A stretch of 64,000 bases of DNA, taken from assembly GCF_054482525.1 (NCBI RefSeq), contig NZ_CM137006.1; one strand, 5' to 3'. The position numbers and the translations under genes were made by a program. The notes under the pieces are model-generated. The model ran no database searches, was not told the DNA's origin, and saw only the letters and a list, made by a program, of their open reading frames with translations. Of this stretch, positions 3,067 to 18,788 are shown piece by piece (within the stretch, counting starts at the first letter, position 1; every line of letters starts with the position of its first letter).

Positions 3067-3489
3067 TTAAAACGGTATGTTATCCCCGTACGGATCATCA
3101 TTTCCCGCCTGTTGTTTTGCTCTGCTCAGTGCATCAGTAGCCTGCCCCTGTTGGCCTTTTTTGCCGCCCGGTCGCGCCGTTCTCGCACTGATTACGCTGT
3201 CTGCGATAACCTGCCAGCCCTGCCGCGTCTCCCCGTTCTGTCCGGTCCACTGGCTCACCTGCATGTTACCCGCCACGCTCAGGAGTTCACCCTTGCGGTG
3301 CTTTGCCAGTGCTTCGGCCTGTCTGCCAAACGCCAGGACGGATAACCACATCGTCGCCGTTCCGTCATCTGCCTGGCTGCACGGAAGTGGGACCGCCATA
3401 CTCGCCATCGTCATTTGTGTACCCTTGCTGGTGGTCTTTAACTGCGGGTCAGCCACCAGCCGCCCGTAAGCCGCTATCTGTGCTGTCAT
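3067..3489 (-). CDS. ssb: Single-stranded DNA-binding protein (phage/plasmid type)
   Basis: 140 aa. OB-fold core WLSVLAFGRQAEALAKHRKGELLSVAGNMQVSQWTGQNGETRQGWQVIADSV parallels E. coli SSB [52 protein letters not shown]. Gly/Gln-rich linker and acidic tail DDPYGDNIPF. Confidence 0.75.
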   Translation of the reverse strand: MTAQIAAYGRLVADPQLKTTSKGTQMTMASMAVPLPCSQADDGTATMWLSVLAFGRQAEALAKHRKGELLSVAGNMQVSQWTGQNGETRQGWQVIADSVISARTARPGGKKGQQGQATDALSRAKQQAGNDDPYGDNIPF

Positions 3490-14486: not shown

Positions 14487-16141
14487 TCCGCGCGACCGCG
14501 CGCCAGCCACAGCACGCGTGAGAACATTTTTTTCAGCAGCGTCGGTACGGAGTCCACACCACGACGTCCGGCCTCCATTGCCACTTCAATGGCAAGATCG
14601 GGTTTGGAAGAGCGATGGATCGCTTTCGAGATAATTTTGCGCAGATTCATCGGTACATTTTCCGGGATTTGCGCCACGCGGTGGAACACATCGGAAAATC
14701 CCTGGCGATACATAAAATGTTCCATATCCAGCGCCGGTAACGCCGTTAAATGTTCTCGTTCGGCTTCCCGATCATTATTCAACAGGCTGCGTACCGTAGC
14801 GGCATATTTCTTCCCTGCTTCATCGCCATCGACCAGTACATGCCATTCAATCCCCATTCGCCGGGCAAATTTAACCAGTGGCTTTAGCCCGGACTGGGCA
14901 AACTCAATGACCTTGATCCCTTCGGCATCAAAATGATGTCCGCACTGACGCGCCAGTTCATTGATAACCCAGGTTTCCGTTTCCCCTTCCACCAGCAGCC
15001 AACAACGGGCAAACAGCGATGACGGACGGTTAAAACGAATGTGAAAGGATATGCGTCGGCTATCTTCGGTACTCAAGCCACTCGGTCCCAGACGCCAGGC
15101 GGCAACGCGAGAGGACTCACGTACCAGTCGGCAAACATGCTCTACCGGCGTTAACGAAAGCAACTCTCCCGAGTTGGTAGTAGCGATGCGCTGCAATGGC
15201 AGAAGGTTCAACAGATGCCAGGCAACTGAAAGCATAATGGGGTGTAAACGGGTTTCTGGATCTTCAATCAGCAATAATGGACGGGCGTCTTTATCCAGTC
15301 GCAATGTGCCTTTTGCCTGCAACAAAGTAGCAAACAGGCCGAGCAAAATAACCCGATACGAGCGCCCACCAGGTCGGTCAATCATCCGGTTGATGATATC
15401 CAGATAGCGCCAGCTTCGTTGCTCATTGCTGGCTCGCCGCCGCATTAAACGATATCGCGCCTGTCCGGCCCCCTGCTCAGAGAAATAATGCTCAAGCAGC
15501 TGTACCATTGCGGAAAGTCCCTGACGAATCTGTCCATCAGAGAGATTTTGCGGATGTGAGGACAACTCACGGGCGAGGAAATCGAGCTGGCGCGCGGTGA
15601 CTTCCACATTAGGGACATTTGGCACCGTGCCGTTACGAATACGGCGCATAAAACGGGCATCACGCAAGCGCAGCACCGGCATTAAACGCACCAGATGGCG
15701 TGCCTGATCGTTAATATCCTCGACATCAATCGGATGTCCGTCTTTATCGAGAAAACTGCGCAGTGTCATCACGCTGCCGTCTTCCGCACTCTCCCCTTCC
15801 AGACGATAAAAAATACGGTGATAGCCATCGGTGCATGGCGTCCAGCACGCTTCCAGCGGCCGATAGCGGCGTACCCGATGTCGGCCTGGCAGCGATTCGC
15901 GGAAGGTCAAAATAATATGCAGATGATGTTCTCGCCCGTTGATATCTCCCGGCGGGAACCAGAAATCGTCGCGCTCAAAATGGTAGAGATCTGATTCTGG
16001 CGATAGCAGCAGGGTTAAGGCGTCCAGCAAGCTGGATTTACCCCACGCGTTCTCCCCAATCAGGACGTTGTTTTGTTCCAGCATCAACGACAAACGGTTG
16101 ATACCGCGAAAACCCACAATTTCAACGCGCTCAAGAATCAT
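14483..16141 (-). CDS. ybjD: OLD-family ATP-dependent nuclease-like protein YbjD (AAA ATPase plus Toprim)
   Basis: 552 aa with N-terminal P-loop GENAWGKSSLLDA and conserved synteny. Confidence 0.75.
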   Translation of the reverse strand: MILERVEIVGFRGINRLSLMLEQNNVLIGENAWGKSSLLDALTLLLSPESDLYHFERDDFWFPPGDINGREHHLHIILTFRESLPGRHRVRRYRPLEACWTPCTDGYHRIFYRLEGESAEDGSVMTLRSFLDKDGHPIDVEDINDQARHLVRLMPVLRLRDARFMRRIRNGTVPNVPNVEVTARQLDFLARELSSHPQNLSDGQIRQGLSAMVQLLEHYFSEQGAGQARYRLMRRRASNEQRSWRYLDIINRMIDRPGGRSYRVILLGLFATLLQAKGTLRLDKDARPLLLIEDPETRLHPIMLSVAWHLLNLLPLQRIATTNSGELLSLTPVEHVCRLVRESSRVAAWRLGPSGLSTEDSRRISFHIRFNRPSSLFARCWLLVEGETETWVINELARQCGHHFDAEGIKVIEFAQSGLKPLVKFARRMGIEWHVLVDGDEAGKKYAATVRSLLNNDREAEREHLTALPALDMEHFMYRQGFSDVFHRVAQIPENVPMNLRKIISKAIHRSSKPDLAIEVAMEAGRRGVDSVPTLLKKMFSRVLWLARGRAD

Positions 16142-16566
16142 ATCCCCTCCAGAAATATGTGACTTATCCTTTACGCTGGCAGTATAACGGGAAAGGCCAT
16201 GCTAATACGTGATGACATCACATTTAAGCATGGCAAATGTCTGAAAAATGAGCGAATAATCGCGTTATACTCCCTCTTGCTGATAAGCCTGCAAAAACAA
16301 CAAAATCAAATAATTAGCATGATAAATTATTTTTTATTACGCCTAAAGGATTAAATCTTTTGCTTGCACTACACTGTCAATCAGACAAATGACTATATGG
16401 GGCAACCCGCTGTTGCCCTAAATCAAATTTACTGGATTTATTTATCTGGTGAATGACTCGCCTTCGTTTTTAAAATAGCCGCGCATTATTTCCGTCGTCA
16501 CTTTTTTACGACGACCCTATAAAACGACCATATTTTTCACAGGGTCAATTTTTAATTGAGGTGGAT

Positions 16567-17262
16567 ATGTTCAGAAAATTAGCAGCTGAATGTTTTGGTA
16601 CTTTCTGGCTTGTTTTTGGTGGCTGTGGTAGTGCCGTACTGGCCGCAGGCTTCCCGGAATTAGGCATTGGTTTTGCCGGCGTGGCGTTGGCGTTCGGTCT
16701 GACCGTTCTGACGATGGCCTTTGCTGTTGGTCACATTTCTGGTGGTCATTTTAACCCGGCGGTCACTATTGGTTTATGGGCTGGCGGACGTTTCCCGGCA
16801 AAAGAAGTCGTTGGCTACGTAATTGCCCAGGTTGTCGGCGGTATTGTTGCGGCGGCGCTGCTGTATTTAATTGCCAGTGGTAAAACGGGTTTTGACGCGG
16901 CAGCCAGCGGTTTTGCTTCTAACGGTTATGGCGAGCATTCGCCAGGCGGTTATTCCATGCTTTCCGCGCTGGTAGTTGAACTGGTATTGAGTGCAGGTTT
17001 CCTGCTGGTGATCCACGGCGCAACCGACAAATTCGCTCCTGCTGGTTTTGCGCCGATCGCTATTGGTCTGGCCTTAACCCTGATTCACTTAATCAGTATT
17101 CCGGTGACTAACACTTCTGTTAACCCGGCGCGCAGCACCGCGGTTGCTATCTTCCAGGGCGGCTGGGCATTAGAACAACTATGGTTCTTCTGGGTGGTGC
17201 CAATTGTCGGCGGCATTATCGGTGGTCTGATTTACCGGACTCTACTGGAAAAACGTAATTAA
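16567..17262 (+). CDS. aqpZ: Aquaporin Z
   Basis: 231 aa starting [13 protein letters not shown] with both NPA motifs (HFNPAVT and VNPARS). Confidence 0.9.
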
Positions 17263-17272
17263 TTAACGCAGA

Positions 17273-17300
17273 AGGCCTGGCGCAATGTCAGGCCTTTTTT
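17273..17300 (+). terminator. Rho-independent terminator of aqpZ
   Basis: Hairpin GGCCTG-gcgcaatgtca-GGCC followed by TTTTTT. Confidence 0.6.
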
Positions 17301-17745
17301 AAATATATTGATTCATCTTCCTGTTGCGCTCCTTGATGTGTTAAGCCACATATAGTCACTGGCGCAGGGAGCGCGCAGGGGGCGGCCAATCGCCGCCGCC
17401 CCCTGCACCCCCGGGCTCTGGCGAACAAAATCGCCGCTGCGCGGTGCCCTCGACTTATCCCTTGCGGCTACCGGGTCGGGCGCGAGGTAACATCCCTGTA
17501 AAACGCGCCCTCAGCCCACATCCATGTGGGCTGCCCCGGCCTTCAGGGAACGCCTCGGCGATTTTGACGCCACCAACACCGGTGCGGTTTGTAATTAAAG
17601 CGCAAGAATATCTTTAAATGAAAATGAATACCCTACCGATCCTTATGCATAACATTTCCTTTTAATTGCAACTTTACTCGTCCTTCCGCTTTCAGTAGTG
17701 TGTCATCGCGCATTTCGACTTCATCTTTGCAAGGACTGGGTTTTC

Positions 17746-18645
17746 ATGTTTTCTGGGCTGTTAATCATTCTGGTTCCCCTGATTGTGGGTTACCTCATTC
17801 CGCTTCGCCAAAAAGCTGCATTAAAAGTTATTAATCAGCTCTTAAGCTGGATGGTTTACCTTATTCTCTTTTTTATGGGTATCAGTCTGGCGTTTCTCGA
17901 TAACCTCGCCAGTAACCTGTTGGCAATTCTGCATTATTCCGCCGTCAGCATTACCATTATTTTACTCTGCAATATTATTGCGTTGTTGTGGCTGGAGCGC
18001 GGTCTGCCGTGGCGCAACCACTACCAGCAAGAAAAACTCCCGTCGCGTATTGCGATGGCGCTGGAGTCGCTAAAACTGTGCGGCGTAGTAGTGATTGGTT
18101 TTGCCATTGGCCTGAGTGGACTGGCTTTCTTACAACATGCGACCGAAGCCAGTGAATACACCTTAATTCTGCTACTTTTCCTCGTCGGTATTCAGTTGCG
18201 CAATAATGGCATGACCTTAAAGCAGATTGTCCTTAATCGCCGGGGAATGATTGTCGCCGTGGTGGTGGTTGCCAGTTCATTAATTGGTGGTTTAATTAAC
18301 GCCTTTATTCTTGATCTTCCCATCAATACCGCGCTGGCAATGGCCTCTGGTTTCGGCTGGTATTCTCTTTCCGGTATTTTATTGACCGAATCTTTTGGTC
18401 CGGTAATCGGGAGCGCGGCATTTTTTAATGATCTGGCCCGTGAGCTGATTGCAATTATGTTGATCCCTGGGCTGATTCGCCGCAGCCGCTCTACCGCACT
18501 GGGCTTATGCGGTGCGACGTCGATGGATTTCACCCTGCCCGTTCTTCAACGTACTGGCGGGCTGGATATGGTCCCGGCGGCAATTGTTCACGGTTTTATT
18601 CTTAGCCTGTTAGTGCCGATCCTCATCGCCTTTTTCTCTGCGTAA
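17746..18645 (+). CDS. lysO: Lysine exporter LysO (YbjE)
   Basis: 299-aa polytopic membrane protein starting MFSGLLIILVPLIVGYL. Synteny. Confidence 0.75.
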   Translation: MFSGLLIILVPLIVGYLIPLRQKAALKVINQLLSWMVYLILFFMGISLAFLDNLASNLLAILHYSAVSITIILLCNIIALLWLERGLPWRNHYQQEKLPSRIAMALESLKLCGVVVIGFAIGLSGLAFLQHATEASEYTLILLLFLVGIQLRNNGMTLKQIVLNRRGMIVAVVVVASSLIGGLINAFILDLPINTALAMASGFGWYSLSGILLTESFGPVIGSAAFFNDLARELIAIMLIPGLIRRSRSTALGLCGATSMDFTLPVLQRTGGLDMVPAAIVHGFILSLLVPILIAFFSA

Positions 18646-18788
18646 TACCTCTCTGGCGGTAGATCCCTGCCGCCAAAATTGCGCTAAATCAATCTCCCTT
18701 AAAGTTGCATGAAAAATCCCTTTTATCCCTGCGTTAAGCGTCTTAACCTTAAACATGTATATTAAATATAACTTTAAAAGGTGTGATC

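What the first reader, a model, noticed from the sequence alone, without database searches (positions are those of the whole stretch)
17301..17700. GC-rich, highly structured intergenic block between aqpZ and lysO
A ~300-bp stretch downstream of the aqpZ terminator is unusually GC-rich, with several long dyads (for example GGGGGCGGCCAATCGCCGCCGCCCCC and GCCCACATCCATGTGGGC). It does not match the canonical REP consensus as I remember it. It lies in the 5' region of lysO and could be a BIME-like repeat cluster or a structured leader or sRNA.
Basis: seen in the sequence. Interest (0 to 1): 0.3.

Follow-up and report, generated by a model that had tools for sequence, protein, structure and literature searches.

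The report
Known E. coli replication-risk repeat (RRS-lysO)
The GC-rich, hairpin-laden block between aqpZ and lysO is the already described TRIP1a repeat, now called RRS-lysO, a DNA element shown experimentally to stall lagging-strand synthesis and leave short single-stranded gaps each time the chromosome is copied; it is not a REP/BIME cluster and there is no evidence that it is an RNA leader.

Summary
Window 17322-17595 is the most GC-rich 273-nt block in the window (64.8% against 49.7%), holds perfect dyads, and folds far better than shuffles on both strands.

It is a known element: TRIP1a (Rudd 1999; Li 2024), also called RRS-lysO (Pham 2023, 2024; Kusi-Appauh 2026).
- By the published definition (168-389 bp upstream of lysO) it lies at 17357-17578.
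- It is 220/222 identical to K-12.
- The published G-quadruplex motif is exact at 17393-17412 on the minus strand. GC skew and synteny make that strand the lagging-strand template, as in K-12.

The published function is to fold during replication, block Okazaki synthesis and leave gaps of up to about 2 kb. It is not REP/BIME, and no RNA role is supported.

New here:
- 14 stem pairs show compensatory changes across genera.
- The inner domain weakly resembles the TwoAYGGAY RNA motif, but scores below Rfam's threshold.
- Many E. coli carry the element inverted; O157:H7 has both copies inverted.
- In Pseudocitrobacter and Kluyvera the core sits inside a roughly 633-bp element. That element has IS4-like terminal inverted repeats, a 13-bp target duplication and a true TwoAYGGAY module, which points to a mobile origin.

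The parts
16567..17262 (+). aqpZ coding sequence (left neighbour)
   Evidence: ORF. The same gene is annotated aqpZ in K-12 and other E. coli.
17272..17300 (+). aqpZ intrinsic-terminator-like hairpin with T-run; not part of the repeat
   Evidence: Inverted repeat I17, AAGGCCTG/CAGGCCTT followed by TTTTTT. [quoted passage not shown]
17322..17595 (.). TRIP1a repeat unit, the full extent of homology among copies
   Evidence: Boundaries come from alignments of copies at other loci and of the inverted O157 allele. There is a single copy in the window.
17357..17578 (.). RRS-lysO as defined experimentally (168-389 bp upstream of the lysO ATG)
   Evidence: Definition in PMC11194060. 220/222 identical to the K-12 segment.
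17326..17374 (.). Hairpin A (GCGCTCC ... GGAGCGC)
   Evidence: Helix 1 is 98% paired across 27 copies, with one compensatory pair (C-G to T-A in Enterobacter sp. ENT03).
17375..17406 (.). Perfect 12-bp hairpin GCAGGGGGCGGC-CAATCGCC-GCCGCCCCCTGC
   Evidence: I2. Helix 2 is 100% paired, with two compensatory C-G to A-T pairs in dusC-type copies.
17393..17412 (-). G-quadruplex-forming motif GGGGGTGCAGGGGGCGGCGG (RRS-G4 strand)
   Evidence: Exact and unique match in the window. The motif and its polymerase-blocking activity are in PMC11194060.
17426..17566 (.). Inner multi-hairpin domain closed by the long-range stem CAAAATCGCCG/CGGCGATTTTG. It corresponds closely to the roughly 125-bp segment missing from short forms (TRIP1b, MP1), a deletion bounded by direct repeats at 17409-17426 and 17534-17551.
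   Evidence: (I1, D2). Weak full-length TwoAYGGAY hit on the minus strand at 17428-17567, 29.8 bits.
17478..17510 (.). Hairpin GGGCGCG...CGCGCCC with the inner loop motif ACATCCCTGT (ACAGGGAUGU on the minus strand)
   Evidence: D5; helices 8 and 9, with compensatory pairs.
17512..17533 (.). Hairpin CAGCCCACAT-CC-ATGTGGGCTG (loop AUGGAU on the minus strand)
   Evidence: (I11). Helix 10 has three compensatory pairs.
17646..17745 (+). lysO-proximal upstream region, essentially unchanged in all locus alleles whatever the repeat's orientation; probable lysO regulatory region (inferred)
   Evidence: Alignment of five alleles.
17746..18645 (+). lysO (ybjE) coding sequence (right neighbour)

Best explanation
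The block is RRS-lysO, also called TRIP1a. It is one of the two Replication Risk Sequences that lie about 650 kb either side of dif in E. coli.

It acts as DNA, not as a gene product. When the fork passes, here moving from high to low window coordinates, the minus strand becomes the transiently single-stranded lagging-strand template. On that strand the G-quadruplex (17393-17412) and the surrounding GC-rich hairpins fold. Okazaki-fragment synthesis is blocked, and a post-replication gap of up to about 2 kb is left. SSB and RecA load into the gap and it is filled later. The discoverers propose that such transient gaps act as swivels, or topological relief valves, at the edges of the Ter macrodomain.

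Shown here: the identity, position, G4 motif, strand orientation and evolutionarily conserved fold.
Shown by others in K-12 and in vitro: polymerase block, gap formation, conditional essentiality of having at least one RRS, and effects on supercoiling.
Inferred: that this strain's copy behaves the same, that the gap extends toward lysO, and the topological role itself.
For: Identity and position:
- 220/222 identity to the experimentally defined K-12 RRS-lysO, at the same distance from lysO.
- The published G4 motif is exact and unique in the window, on the minus strand.
- The window plus strand has GC skew -0.045, negative in 7 of 8 blocks, and the gene order is the reverse of K-12's right replichore. 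The minus strand is therefore the lagging-strand template, as published for K-12.

Structure:
- Strong predicted structure on both strands.
- The fold is maintained across 27 copies from Escherichia, Kluyvera, Pseudocitrobacter and Enterobacter. 97% of cells are paired. 14 pairs carry compensatory changes, against 6.1 +/- 1.6 in shuffles (0 of 500 reach 14) and 0-3 in the slid controls.

Literature:
- TRIP1a lies 31 bp downstream of the aqpZ terminator (PMC10888264).
- RecA/SSB ssGap-seq peaks at lysO and dusC disappear when the RRS is deleted (PMC10287960).
- The G4 strand blocks Pol I, II and IV. Ectopic RRS copies create new gaps. The double deletion is viable only with amplification of the insH7-8 region. 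Supercoiling is altered (PMC11194060).
- Single-molecule work shows gaps at nearly every encounter when the G4 strand is the lagging template, and at about 66% of encounters when inverted (bioRxiv 10.64898/2026.06.16.732529).
Against:
- The topological relief valve role is the authors' hypothesis.
- Natural variation sits uneasily with a strict requirement for orientation. About 26% of complete E. coli genomes have the lysO copy inverted or shortened, and about 39% have the dusC copy inverted (compare PMC10888264). O157:H7 has both copies inverted. ST131-type strains have lost about 70 bp of the inner domain.
- Outside Escherichia the copies found are not next to aqpZ, lysO, dusC or putP homologues. 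There they form part of a transposon-like composite. Conservation may therefore partly reflect mobility rather than host function.
Confidence: 0.85

Rival explanations
1. The element is mainly a relic of a mobile element: the cargo of an IS4-type non-autonomous transposon. Its gap-forming behaviour is a side-effect of carrying very stable GC-rich structure. Its near-identity across genera reflects recent spread rather than selection for a chromosome-topology role.
For: - In Pseudocitrobacter vendiensis the core lies inside a 633-bp unit (L062 5273-5905). The unit is bounded by perfect 18-bp inverted repeats, TAATGCTGGTCAGTTAAG, which are 16/18 identical to both ends of K-12 IS4.
- That unit is flanked by a perfect 13-bp direct repeat, TCCCTTACGGGGG. 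Removing the element and one repeat copy restores a perfect terminator.
- IS4 itself shows a 12-bp duplication in K-12.
- P. faecalis has the same unit at a different locus, with 1-2 mismatches in its inverted repeats.
- Kluyvera copies carry degenerate IS4-like ends at the expected positions. They are multi-copy, and 8 of 9 hits in K. genomosp. 1 lie at contig ends.
- Non-Escherichia copies are not next to aqpZ, lysO, dusC or putP homologues.
- In E. coli there are variants in orientation, deletion variants and short forms.
Against: - E. coli flanks show no significant similarity to the composite's ends, and the second module is absent from 5425 of 5426 E. coli genomes. Descent of the E. coli copies from the composite is therefore inferred, not shown.
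- Nearly all complete E. coli genomes keep a copy at both lysO and dusC.
- In K-12 at least one copy is conditionally essential (PMC11194060).
- A mobile origin and later domestication are compatible with the best explanation.
Confidence: 0.45
2. The block encodes a structured RNA on the minus strand. This would be a TwoAYGGAY-like RNA whose two GGA-containing hairpin loops bind a dimeric protein such as CsrA. Alternatively it acts as a structured leader of lysO on the plus strand.
For: - Full-length alignment (model positions 1-168) to Rfam TwoAYGGAY RF01731 on the minus strand at 17428-17567: 29.8 bits, E = 0.065.
- The same place and strand are hit in other copies, at 26-31 bits.
- The loops read AUGGAU and AGGGAU. 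The TCC/GGA core is invariant in all copies that retain the hairpins, and the stems covary.
- TwoAYGGAY was proposed to be a CsrA-binding sRNA (PMC4333381).
- The loop contexts resemble the CsrA SELEX consensus RUACARGGAUGU. This rests on my own recollection and was not tested.
- A TwoAYGGAY core above Rfam's threshold (49.2 bits) sits next to the core in Pseudocitrobacter.
Against: - The score is below Rfam's gathering threshold of 43 bits.
- Hits in homologous copies are not independent evidence.
- Sequence similarity between the inner domain and the genuine TwoAYGGAY module is not significant.
- No promoter-like or terminator-like sites on either strand, and no transcript data were found.
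- Orientation relative to neighbouring genes varies between strains.
- The ST131 allele lacks both hairpins.
- Compensatory changes are Watson-Crick to Watson-Crick, so they fit folded ssDNA equally well.
- lysO's unchanged proximal 100 bp make a far-upstream leader unlikely.
Confidence: 0.1
3. The block is a REP/BIME (or RIP) cluster.
For: It is intergenic, lies downstream of a terminator, is GC-rich with dyads, and is repeated in the genome.
Against: - No match to the REP consensus with up to 3 mismatches anywhere in the window.
- No naRNA4/REP model hit in 16000-19000 at E <= 10, although the same model scores 69-75 bits on real REP arrays in L066.
- No repeat_region is annotated here in K-12.
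- The unit is a single roughly 270-bp sequence with 2-5 copies per genome, not tandem 35-bp palindromic units (PMC10888264).
Confidence: 0.01

Closest known systems
RRS-lysO / TRIP1a of E. coli K-12 (Rudd 1999; Pham et al. 2023, 2024; Li et al. 2024)
   Same: Same locus, same orientation, 220/222 identical, identical G4 motif, same distance from lysO and aqpZ.
   Different: Two substitutions within the 222-bp core. The left flank is 10-11 bp shorter than in K-12. No functional data exist for this strain.
RRS-dusC / TRIP1c, plus TRIP1b, TRIP1d and TRIP1e (paralogous copies)
   Same: Same roughly 270-bp unit and same predicted fold, at 89-94% identity. All lie just downstream of a gene's 3' end (PMC10888264).
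   Different: They sit at other loci. TRIP1b and the MP1-type allele lack the 125-bp inner domain and the full G4 motif. Some dusC-type copies (O157-type) carry compensatory A-T pairs in the G4 hairpin.
pilE-associated G-quadruplex of Neisseria gonorrhoeae
   Same: According to PMC11194060 and the 2026 preprint, this is the only other bacterial sequence element reported to trigger programmed gap formation through a G4.
   Different: It is a short G4 motif tied to pilin antigenic variation. It is not a 270-bp multi-hairpin repeat flanking the terminus, and it has no sequence relationship to the RRS. This comparison rests on the literature and was not tested here.
REP/BIME elements
   Same: Intergenic, GC-rich, palindromic, repeated and often 3' of genes. 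BIME-2 elements are also linked to topology, as gyrase targets (PMC11194060).
   Different: The RRS has no REP consensus, is a single long unit and is present in only a few copies.
TwoAYGGAY RNA motif (Rfam RF01731; Weinberg 2010)
   Same: Two adjacent hairpins with A-N-GGA-Y loops enclosed by a long closing stem. The motif is also a multi-copy repeat in a gammaproteobacterium, Psychromonas. A canonical copy sits next to the RRS core in Pseudocitrobacter and Kluyvera.
   Different: The RRS inner domain scores 26-31 bits against a threshold of 43. One loop is AGGGAU rather than AYGGAY. No transcript is known.
IS4 and IS4-derived non-autonomous elements (MITEs)
   Same: In Pseudocitrobacter and Kluyvera the unit that contains the RRS core has IS4-like 18-bp terminal inverted repeats (16/18 identical). 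It also has a 13-bp target duplication, close to the 12-bp one seen for IS4 in K-12.
   Different: The window copy has no recognisable inverted repeats or duplication. There is no transposase gene and no internal similarity to IS4.

Membership tests
RRS / TRIP1 repeat | Sequence homology to the 222-bp K-12 RRS (266-273-bp TRIP1 unit) | tested here: met
   220/222 identical to the K-12 segment 168-389 bp upstream of lysO. 95.5% identical over 289 nt including the edges.
RRS / TRIP1 repeat | Locus: between aqpZ and lysO, just past the aqpZ terminator and about 168 bp upstream of the lysO ATG | tested here: met
   Core at 17357-17578, lysO ATG at 17746, aqpZ stop at 17262, terminator at 17272-17300. 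This matches PMC10888264 and PMC11194060.
RRS / TRIP1 repeat | Single G4-forming sequence 5'-GGGGGTGCAGGGGGCGGCGG-3' on one strand | tested here: met
   Exact match at 17393-17412 on the minus strand, unique in the window, with 0 expected by chance.
RRS / TRIP1 repeat | The G4 strand is the lagging-strand template (native K-12 configuration) | tested here: met
   Inferred from plus-strand GC skew of -0.045 and from synteny reversed relative to K-12's right replichore, where the G4 lies on the top strand. This is not a direct measurement of fork direction.
RRS / TRIP1 repeat | High GC (62-69%) and very stable secondary structure | tested here: met
   64.8% GC over the unit and 68.9% over the 222-bp core. 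Folding z-scores are -5.2 and -5.4.
RRS / TRIP1 repeat | Triggers lagging-strand ssDNA gaps with RecA/SSB loading, and blocks DNA polymerases | not testable with these tools
   Shown for the K-12 sequence in PMC10287960, PMC11194060 and bioRxiv 10.64898/2026.06.16.732529.
RRS / TRIP1 repeat | An inverted partner copy near dusC, about 1.3 Mb away and symmetric about dif | not testable with these tools
   The partner lies outside the 64-kb window, which holds only one copy. Genomes identical to the window at this locus have 3-5 matching places.
REP / BIME | One or more roughly 35-bp REP palindromic units matching the REP consensus | tested here: not met
   No match with up to 3 mismatches (the consensus was recalled from memory). 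No naRNA4 hit here, whereas the positive control in L066 scores 69-75 bits. No K-12 repeat_region feature.
TwoAYGGAY RNA (Rfam RF01731) | Covariance-model score at or above the gathering threshold (43 bits) | tested here: not met
   29.8 bits, E = 0.065, minus strand, 17428-17567. Other RRS copies score 26-31 bits.
TwoAYGGAY RNA (Rfam RF01731) | Two terminal loops reading AYGGAY, enclosed by a long P1 stem | tested here: inconclusive
   On the minus strand the loops read AUGGAU (fits the motif) and AGGGAU (second position is G, not Y). P1 is 16 bp and 88% complementary.
IS4-type non-autonomous transposon (MITE) | IS4-like terminal inverted repeats at both ends | tested here: not met
   None within 4 mismatches anywhere in the window. 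E. coli flanks are no more similar to the composite's ends than shuffled sequence. The feature is met in related loci: L062 (0 mismatches), L026 (1-2 mismatches) and several Kluyvera copies (3-4 mismatches).
IS4-type non-autonomous transposon (MITE) | Target-site duplication of 11-13 bp | tested here: not met
   No direct repeat flanks the window copy. Met in L062, with a perfect 13-bp duplication.
Cis-regulatory leader or riboswitch of lysO | Lies within the lysO transcript in a fixed orientation, with a match to a known leader family | tested here: inconclusive
   No Rfam family passes and no promoter-like site was found. Orientation varies between strains while the proximal 100 bp stay constant. 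The lysO transcription start could not be retrieved.

The most novel reading that the evidence does not exclude
The RRS/TRIP1 core is, or descends from, the cargo of an IS4-family non-autonomous transposable element that also carries a genuine TwoAYGGAY structured module. On this reading, three things reflect transposition and horizontal spread followed by possible domestication in E. coli, rather than an ancient dedicated chromosome-architecture sequence:
- near-identity between genera;
- multi-copy distribution at variable loci in Kluyvera, Pseudocitrobacter and Enterobacter;
- either-orientation alleles in E. coli.

The RRS papers read here do not mention transposons, IS4 or TwoAYGGAY, and one states that the repeat fits no known repeat category.
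Probability: 0.5. Interest if true: 0.6.

Novelty: already known. Interest (0 to 1): 0.3.

Why it matters
As a finding in this window it is a re-discovery. The block is the published RRS-lysO/TRIP1a element, and its role in programmed post-replication gap formation has been studied since 2023.

The element itself is important. It is one of only two bacterial sequences reported to programme ssDNA gaps, and it is a candidate determinant of the Ter-macrodomain boundary.

The side results bear on how that literature is read:
- If the core travels inside an IS4-like transposon in neighbouring genera, then sequence conservation across enterobacteria is weaker evidence for host function than has been assumed.
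- Frequent natural inversions, with both copies inverted in O157:H7, are natural versions of the engineered inverted strains and could be phenotyped directly.
- Compensatory substitutions show that the whole multi-hairpin fold is under selection, not only the G4.

Tried and rejected
- REP/BIME identity: rejected.
- Known RNA family: only a sub-threshold TwoAYGGAY hit, with nothing else in 16000-19000 at E <= 10.
- Promoter and terminator scan of 17150-17800: nothing on either strand.
- Simple local flip between flanking inverted repeats, to explain the inverted O157 allele: rejected. The flanks of the two alleles are unrelated and the predicted junctions do not match.
- IS4-like inverted-repeat remnants in E. 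coli flanks: by-eye resemblances, such as TAATGTCATCAGGTCCG at K-12 dusC, did not survive a shuffle test, so they are not claimed.
- Homology between the RRS inner domain and the adjacent TwoAYGGAY module: local alignment not significant, 121 of 1000 shuffles scoring as well.
- Empty-site allele for TRIP1d at alx-sstT: K-12 carries a different GC-rich repeat at that spot, so there is no clean empty site.
- Empty site for the P. vendiensis insertion, looked up by exact PntB protein: only the same genome was returned.
- Module 2 in E. coli: absent, apart from a partial hit inside foreign DNA in strain CT29.
- lysO transcription start site: the relevant paper is not held, and the LysO topology paper gives no information on it.
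- CsrA CLIP-seq literature mentioning aqpZ: no papers found.

Full report
**1. The observation**

The window is E. coli, with the gene order ybjD(-), aqpZ(+), lysO(+), hcp(+). The same order is annotated in K-12 in the reverse direction.

The aqpZ terminator hairpin lies at 17272-17300. Downstream of it, GC content rises to 0.73 in the 100-nt window 17350-17449. Over 17323-17595 it is 64.8%, against 49.7% for the whole window. Only one of 6373 sliding 273-nt windows, itself overlapping the block, matches or exceeds that.

There is also a 16-nt long-range stem. Either strand folds far better than its dinucleotide shuffles, with z = -5.2 and -5.4 and 0 of 200 shuffles as stable.

**2. What it is**

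A megablast of the intergenic region found matches in 5425 of 5426 complete E. coli genomes, with a median of 3 places per genome. The other places lie downstream of dusC and downstream of putP.

Aligning the copies defines a unit of about 270 bp, at window 17322-17595. There is also a short form lacking 125 internal bp, a deletion bounded by a direct repeat.

K-12 has the same sequence at the same place, but no feature is annotated there. A full-text search identified it as TRIP1a, from the TRIP1 family of Rudd (1999) that Li et al. re-surveyed in 2024 (PMC10888264). [quoted passage not shown] Both descriptions match what I had derived independently.

A second search showed that the same repeats were renamed Replication Risk Sequences, RRS-lysO and RRS-dusC, by Pham, Cox, Goodman and colleagues (PMC10287960, PMC11194060). 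There is also a 2026 single-molecule preprint (10.64898/2026.06.16.732529).

**3. Membership tests for RRS-lysO**

- The papers define RRS-lysO as the segment 168-389 bp upstream of lysO. In the window that is 17357-17578.
- This segment is 220/222 identical to the K-12 segment.
- The published G4-forming sequence GGGGGTGCAGGGGGCGGCGG occurs once, exactly, at 17393-17412 on the minus strand.
- The plus strand has a negative GC skew (-0.045, negative in 7 of 8 blocks), and the locus is reversed relative to K-12's right replichore. So the fork runs from high to low window coordinates, and the minus strand is the lagging-strand template. This is the native K-12 configuration.
- There is only one copy in the window.

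**4. How it works (from the literature)**

- ssGap-seq shows focused RecA and SSB peaks on the lagging strand at lysO and dusC. They extend 1.4-2.5 kb and vanish when the respective RRS is deleted (PMC10287960).
- The G4 strand blocks Pol I, II and IV in vitro. It also lowers M13 yield when it is on the template strand.
- RRS copies moved elsewhere create new peaks.
- Both copies can be deleted only if a 200-kb region is amplified, or if ectopic or inverted copies are present.
- The double deletion or double inversion changes psoralen-measured supercoiling (PMC11194060).
- In single-molecule replication, gaps form at nearly every encounter when the G4 strand is the lagging template. They form at about 66% of encounters when the complementary strand is (2026 preprint).

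I infer, but cannot show, that the window copy behaves the same way. I also infer that the gap would extend from the element toward lysO, because Okazaki synthesis here runs toward increasing coordinates.

**5. Rejected or unsupported readings**

REP/BIME is rejected:
- There is no REP consensus match.
- There is no naRNA4 hit here, although that model scores 69-75 bits on real REP arrays in L066.

A lysO leader or an sRNA is unsupported:
- No consensus promoter or terminator was found.
- No Rfam family passes its threshold.
- The element's orientation relative to lysO differs among strains, while the 100 bp next to lysO are essentially unchanged.

I could not retrieve the lysO transcription start.

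**6. New observations: structure**

A pattern scan of one genome per species returned homologues in four genera: Escherichia species, Kluyvera, Pseudocitrobacter and an Enterobacter species.

In an alignment of 27 copies, a 63-pair structure is 97% paired. Fourteen pairs carry compensatory double changes, against 6.1 +/- 1.6 in column shuffles (0 of 500 reach 14) and 0-3 in the slid controls.

Three points follow:
- The whole multi-hairpin fold appears to be under selection, not just the G-tracts.
- The changes are Watson-Crick to Watson-Crick, so they do not say which strand folds, or whether it folds as DNA or RNA.
- Many of the changes come from a few lineages, so they represent few independent events.

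**7. New observations: TwoAYGGAY**

The only Rfam signal is a full-length but sub-threshold match of the inner domain, on the minus strand, to TwoAYGGAY: 29.8 bits against a threshold of 43, E = 0.065. The two loops read AUGGAU and AGGGAU. The GGA core is invariant in all copies that retain the hairpins.

TwoAYGGAY was proposed as a CsrA-binding RNA (PMC4333381). In Weinberg's own alignment it is a multi-copy repeat in Psychromonas.

By Rfam's criterion the RRS is not a member of this family. I list the RNA reading as a low-probability rival.

**8. New observations: a transposon-like composite**

In Kluyvera, Pseudocitrobacter and Enterobacter sp. ENT03, every full copy examined is followed by a second GC-rich module of about 230 bp. 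That module is absent from E. coli. It contains a TwoAYGGAY core that scores 49.2 bits in L026, above Rfam's threshold, and 41.9 and 39.4 bits in Kluyvera, just below it. It ends with a terminator-like hairpin.

In P. vendiensis the whole 633-bp unit has these features:
- It is bounded by perfect 18-bp inverted repeats, TAATGCTGGTCAGTTAAG.
- Those repeats are 16/18 identical to both ends of K-12 IS4.
- It is flanked by a perfect 13-bp direct repeat.
- Removing the element and one repeat copy restores a perfect terminator downstream of pntB.

K-12 IS4 itself shows a 12-bp duplication. P. faecalis carries the unit at a different locus. Kluyvera copies have degenerate IS4-like ends at the expected positions, are multi-copy, and break assemblies. 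None of these copies is next to aqpZ, lysO, dusC or putP homologues.

E. coli flanks retain no significant trace of these ends. That the E. coli RRS descends from such an element is therefore an inference.

None of the four RRS/TRIP1 papers I read mentions IS4, MITEs or TwoAYGGAY. PMC11194060 says the repeat does not fit the known repeat categories, transposons among them.

**9. New observations: natural variation in E. coli**

At lysO, 4027 of 5425 genomes have the K-12/window orientation. This count includes an ST131-type allele that has lost about 70 bp, including both GGA hairpins. The rest carry an inverted full or short form.

At dusC, 3313 of 5425 genomes have the K-12 orientation.

O157:H7 has both copies inverted relative to K-12, with the flanking genes intact. 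This agrees with the counts of Li et al.

The mechanism of these local flips is unexplained. The sequences between the element and the conserved gene-proximal DNA differ between the alleles.

**10. Verdict**

The feature is real and already known. The best explanation is the published one, with high confidence in the identity and good confidence in the mechanism. Interest as a window finding is low to moderate. The link to mobile elements and the natural inversions are the parts worth passing on.

Noticed in passing
L005 (O157:H7 aqpZ-lysO) and L002 (O157:H7 dusC-yohP), compared with L001 and L074 (K-12): O157:H7 carries both RRS copies inverted relative to K-12, with the flanking genes intact. 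The G4 strand would therefore be the leading-strand template at both loci. This is a natural counterpart of the engineered double-inverted strain.
   Followed up: partly
L007 364-777 (ST131 aqpZ-lysO intergenic region): The ST131-type allele has an internal deletion of about 70 bp in RRS-lysO. It removes both GGA-loop hairpins but keeps the G4 hairpin. Strain 439 combines this allele with an inverted dusC copy (H70, H108).
   Followed up: partly
L006 364-683 (E. coli MP1): The aqpZ-lysO locus holds an inverted short form that lacks the 125-bp inner domain, like TRIP1b at putP-efeU. It seems to have been missed as TRIP1a in the published survey because its coverage falls below 80%.
   Followed up: partly
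L062 5273-5905 (Pseudocitrobacter vendiensis, between pntB and a uspE-like gene): A 633-bp unit made of the RRS core plus a TwoAYGGAY module. It has perfect IS4-like 18-bp terminal inverted repeats and a 13-bp target duplication that splits a terminator hairpin.
   Followed up: yes
L042 about 1250-1300 (Kluyvera cryocrescens copy): The G4 region is expanded by tandem TGCACCCC repeats (CCCCCTGCACCCCTGCACCCCTGCACCCCTGCACCCCC). This adds G-tracts on the complementary strand.
   Followed up: no
L077 1554-2168 compared with L078 3047-3444 (alx-sstT intergenic region): Where some E. coli carry TRIP1d, K-12 carries a different GC-rich palindromic repeat at the same spot. The locus therefore swaps repeat types rather than showing an empty site.
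   Followed up: partly
L057 (583-bp contig labelled Bacillus sp., coverage 0.7): This contig encodes the C-terminus of E. coli-type PutP followed by a full-length TRIP1 copy. It is probably enterobacterial contamination. It shows that a long form exists at the putP locus in some strain.
   Followed up: no
window 17698-17745: The longest lysO ORF starts at a GTG at 17698, 16 codons upstream of the annotated ATG at 17746. RefSeq records use the ATG.
   Followed up: no
window about 3130-3470: This is the second most GC-rich 273-nt stretch in the window, at about 0.63 GC. It was not examined.
   Followed up: no
L075 1501-1582 (E. coli CT29): This is the only E. coli hit to the TwoAYGGAY-bearing module 2. 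It is a partial copy inside apparently foreign DNA next to an IS66 fragment, not at an RRS locus.
   Followed up: partly
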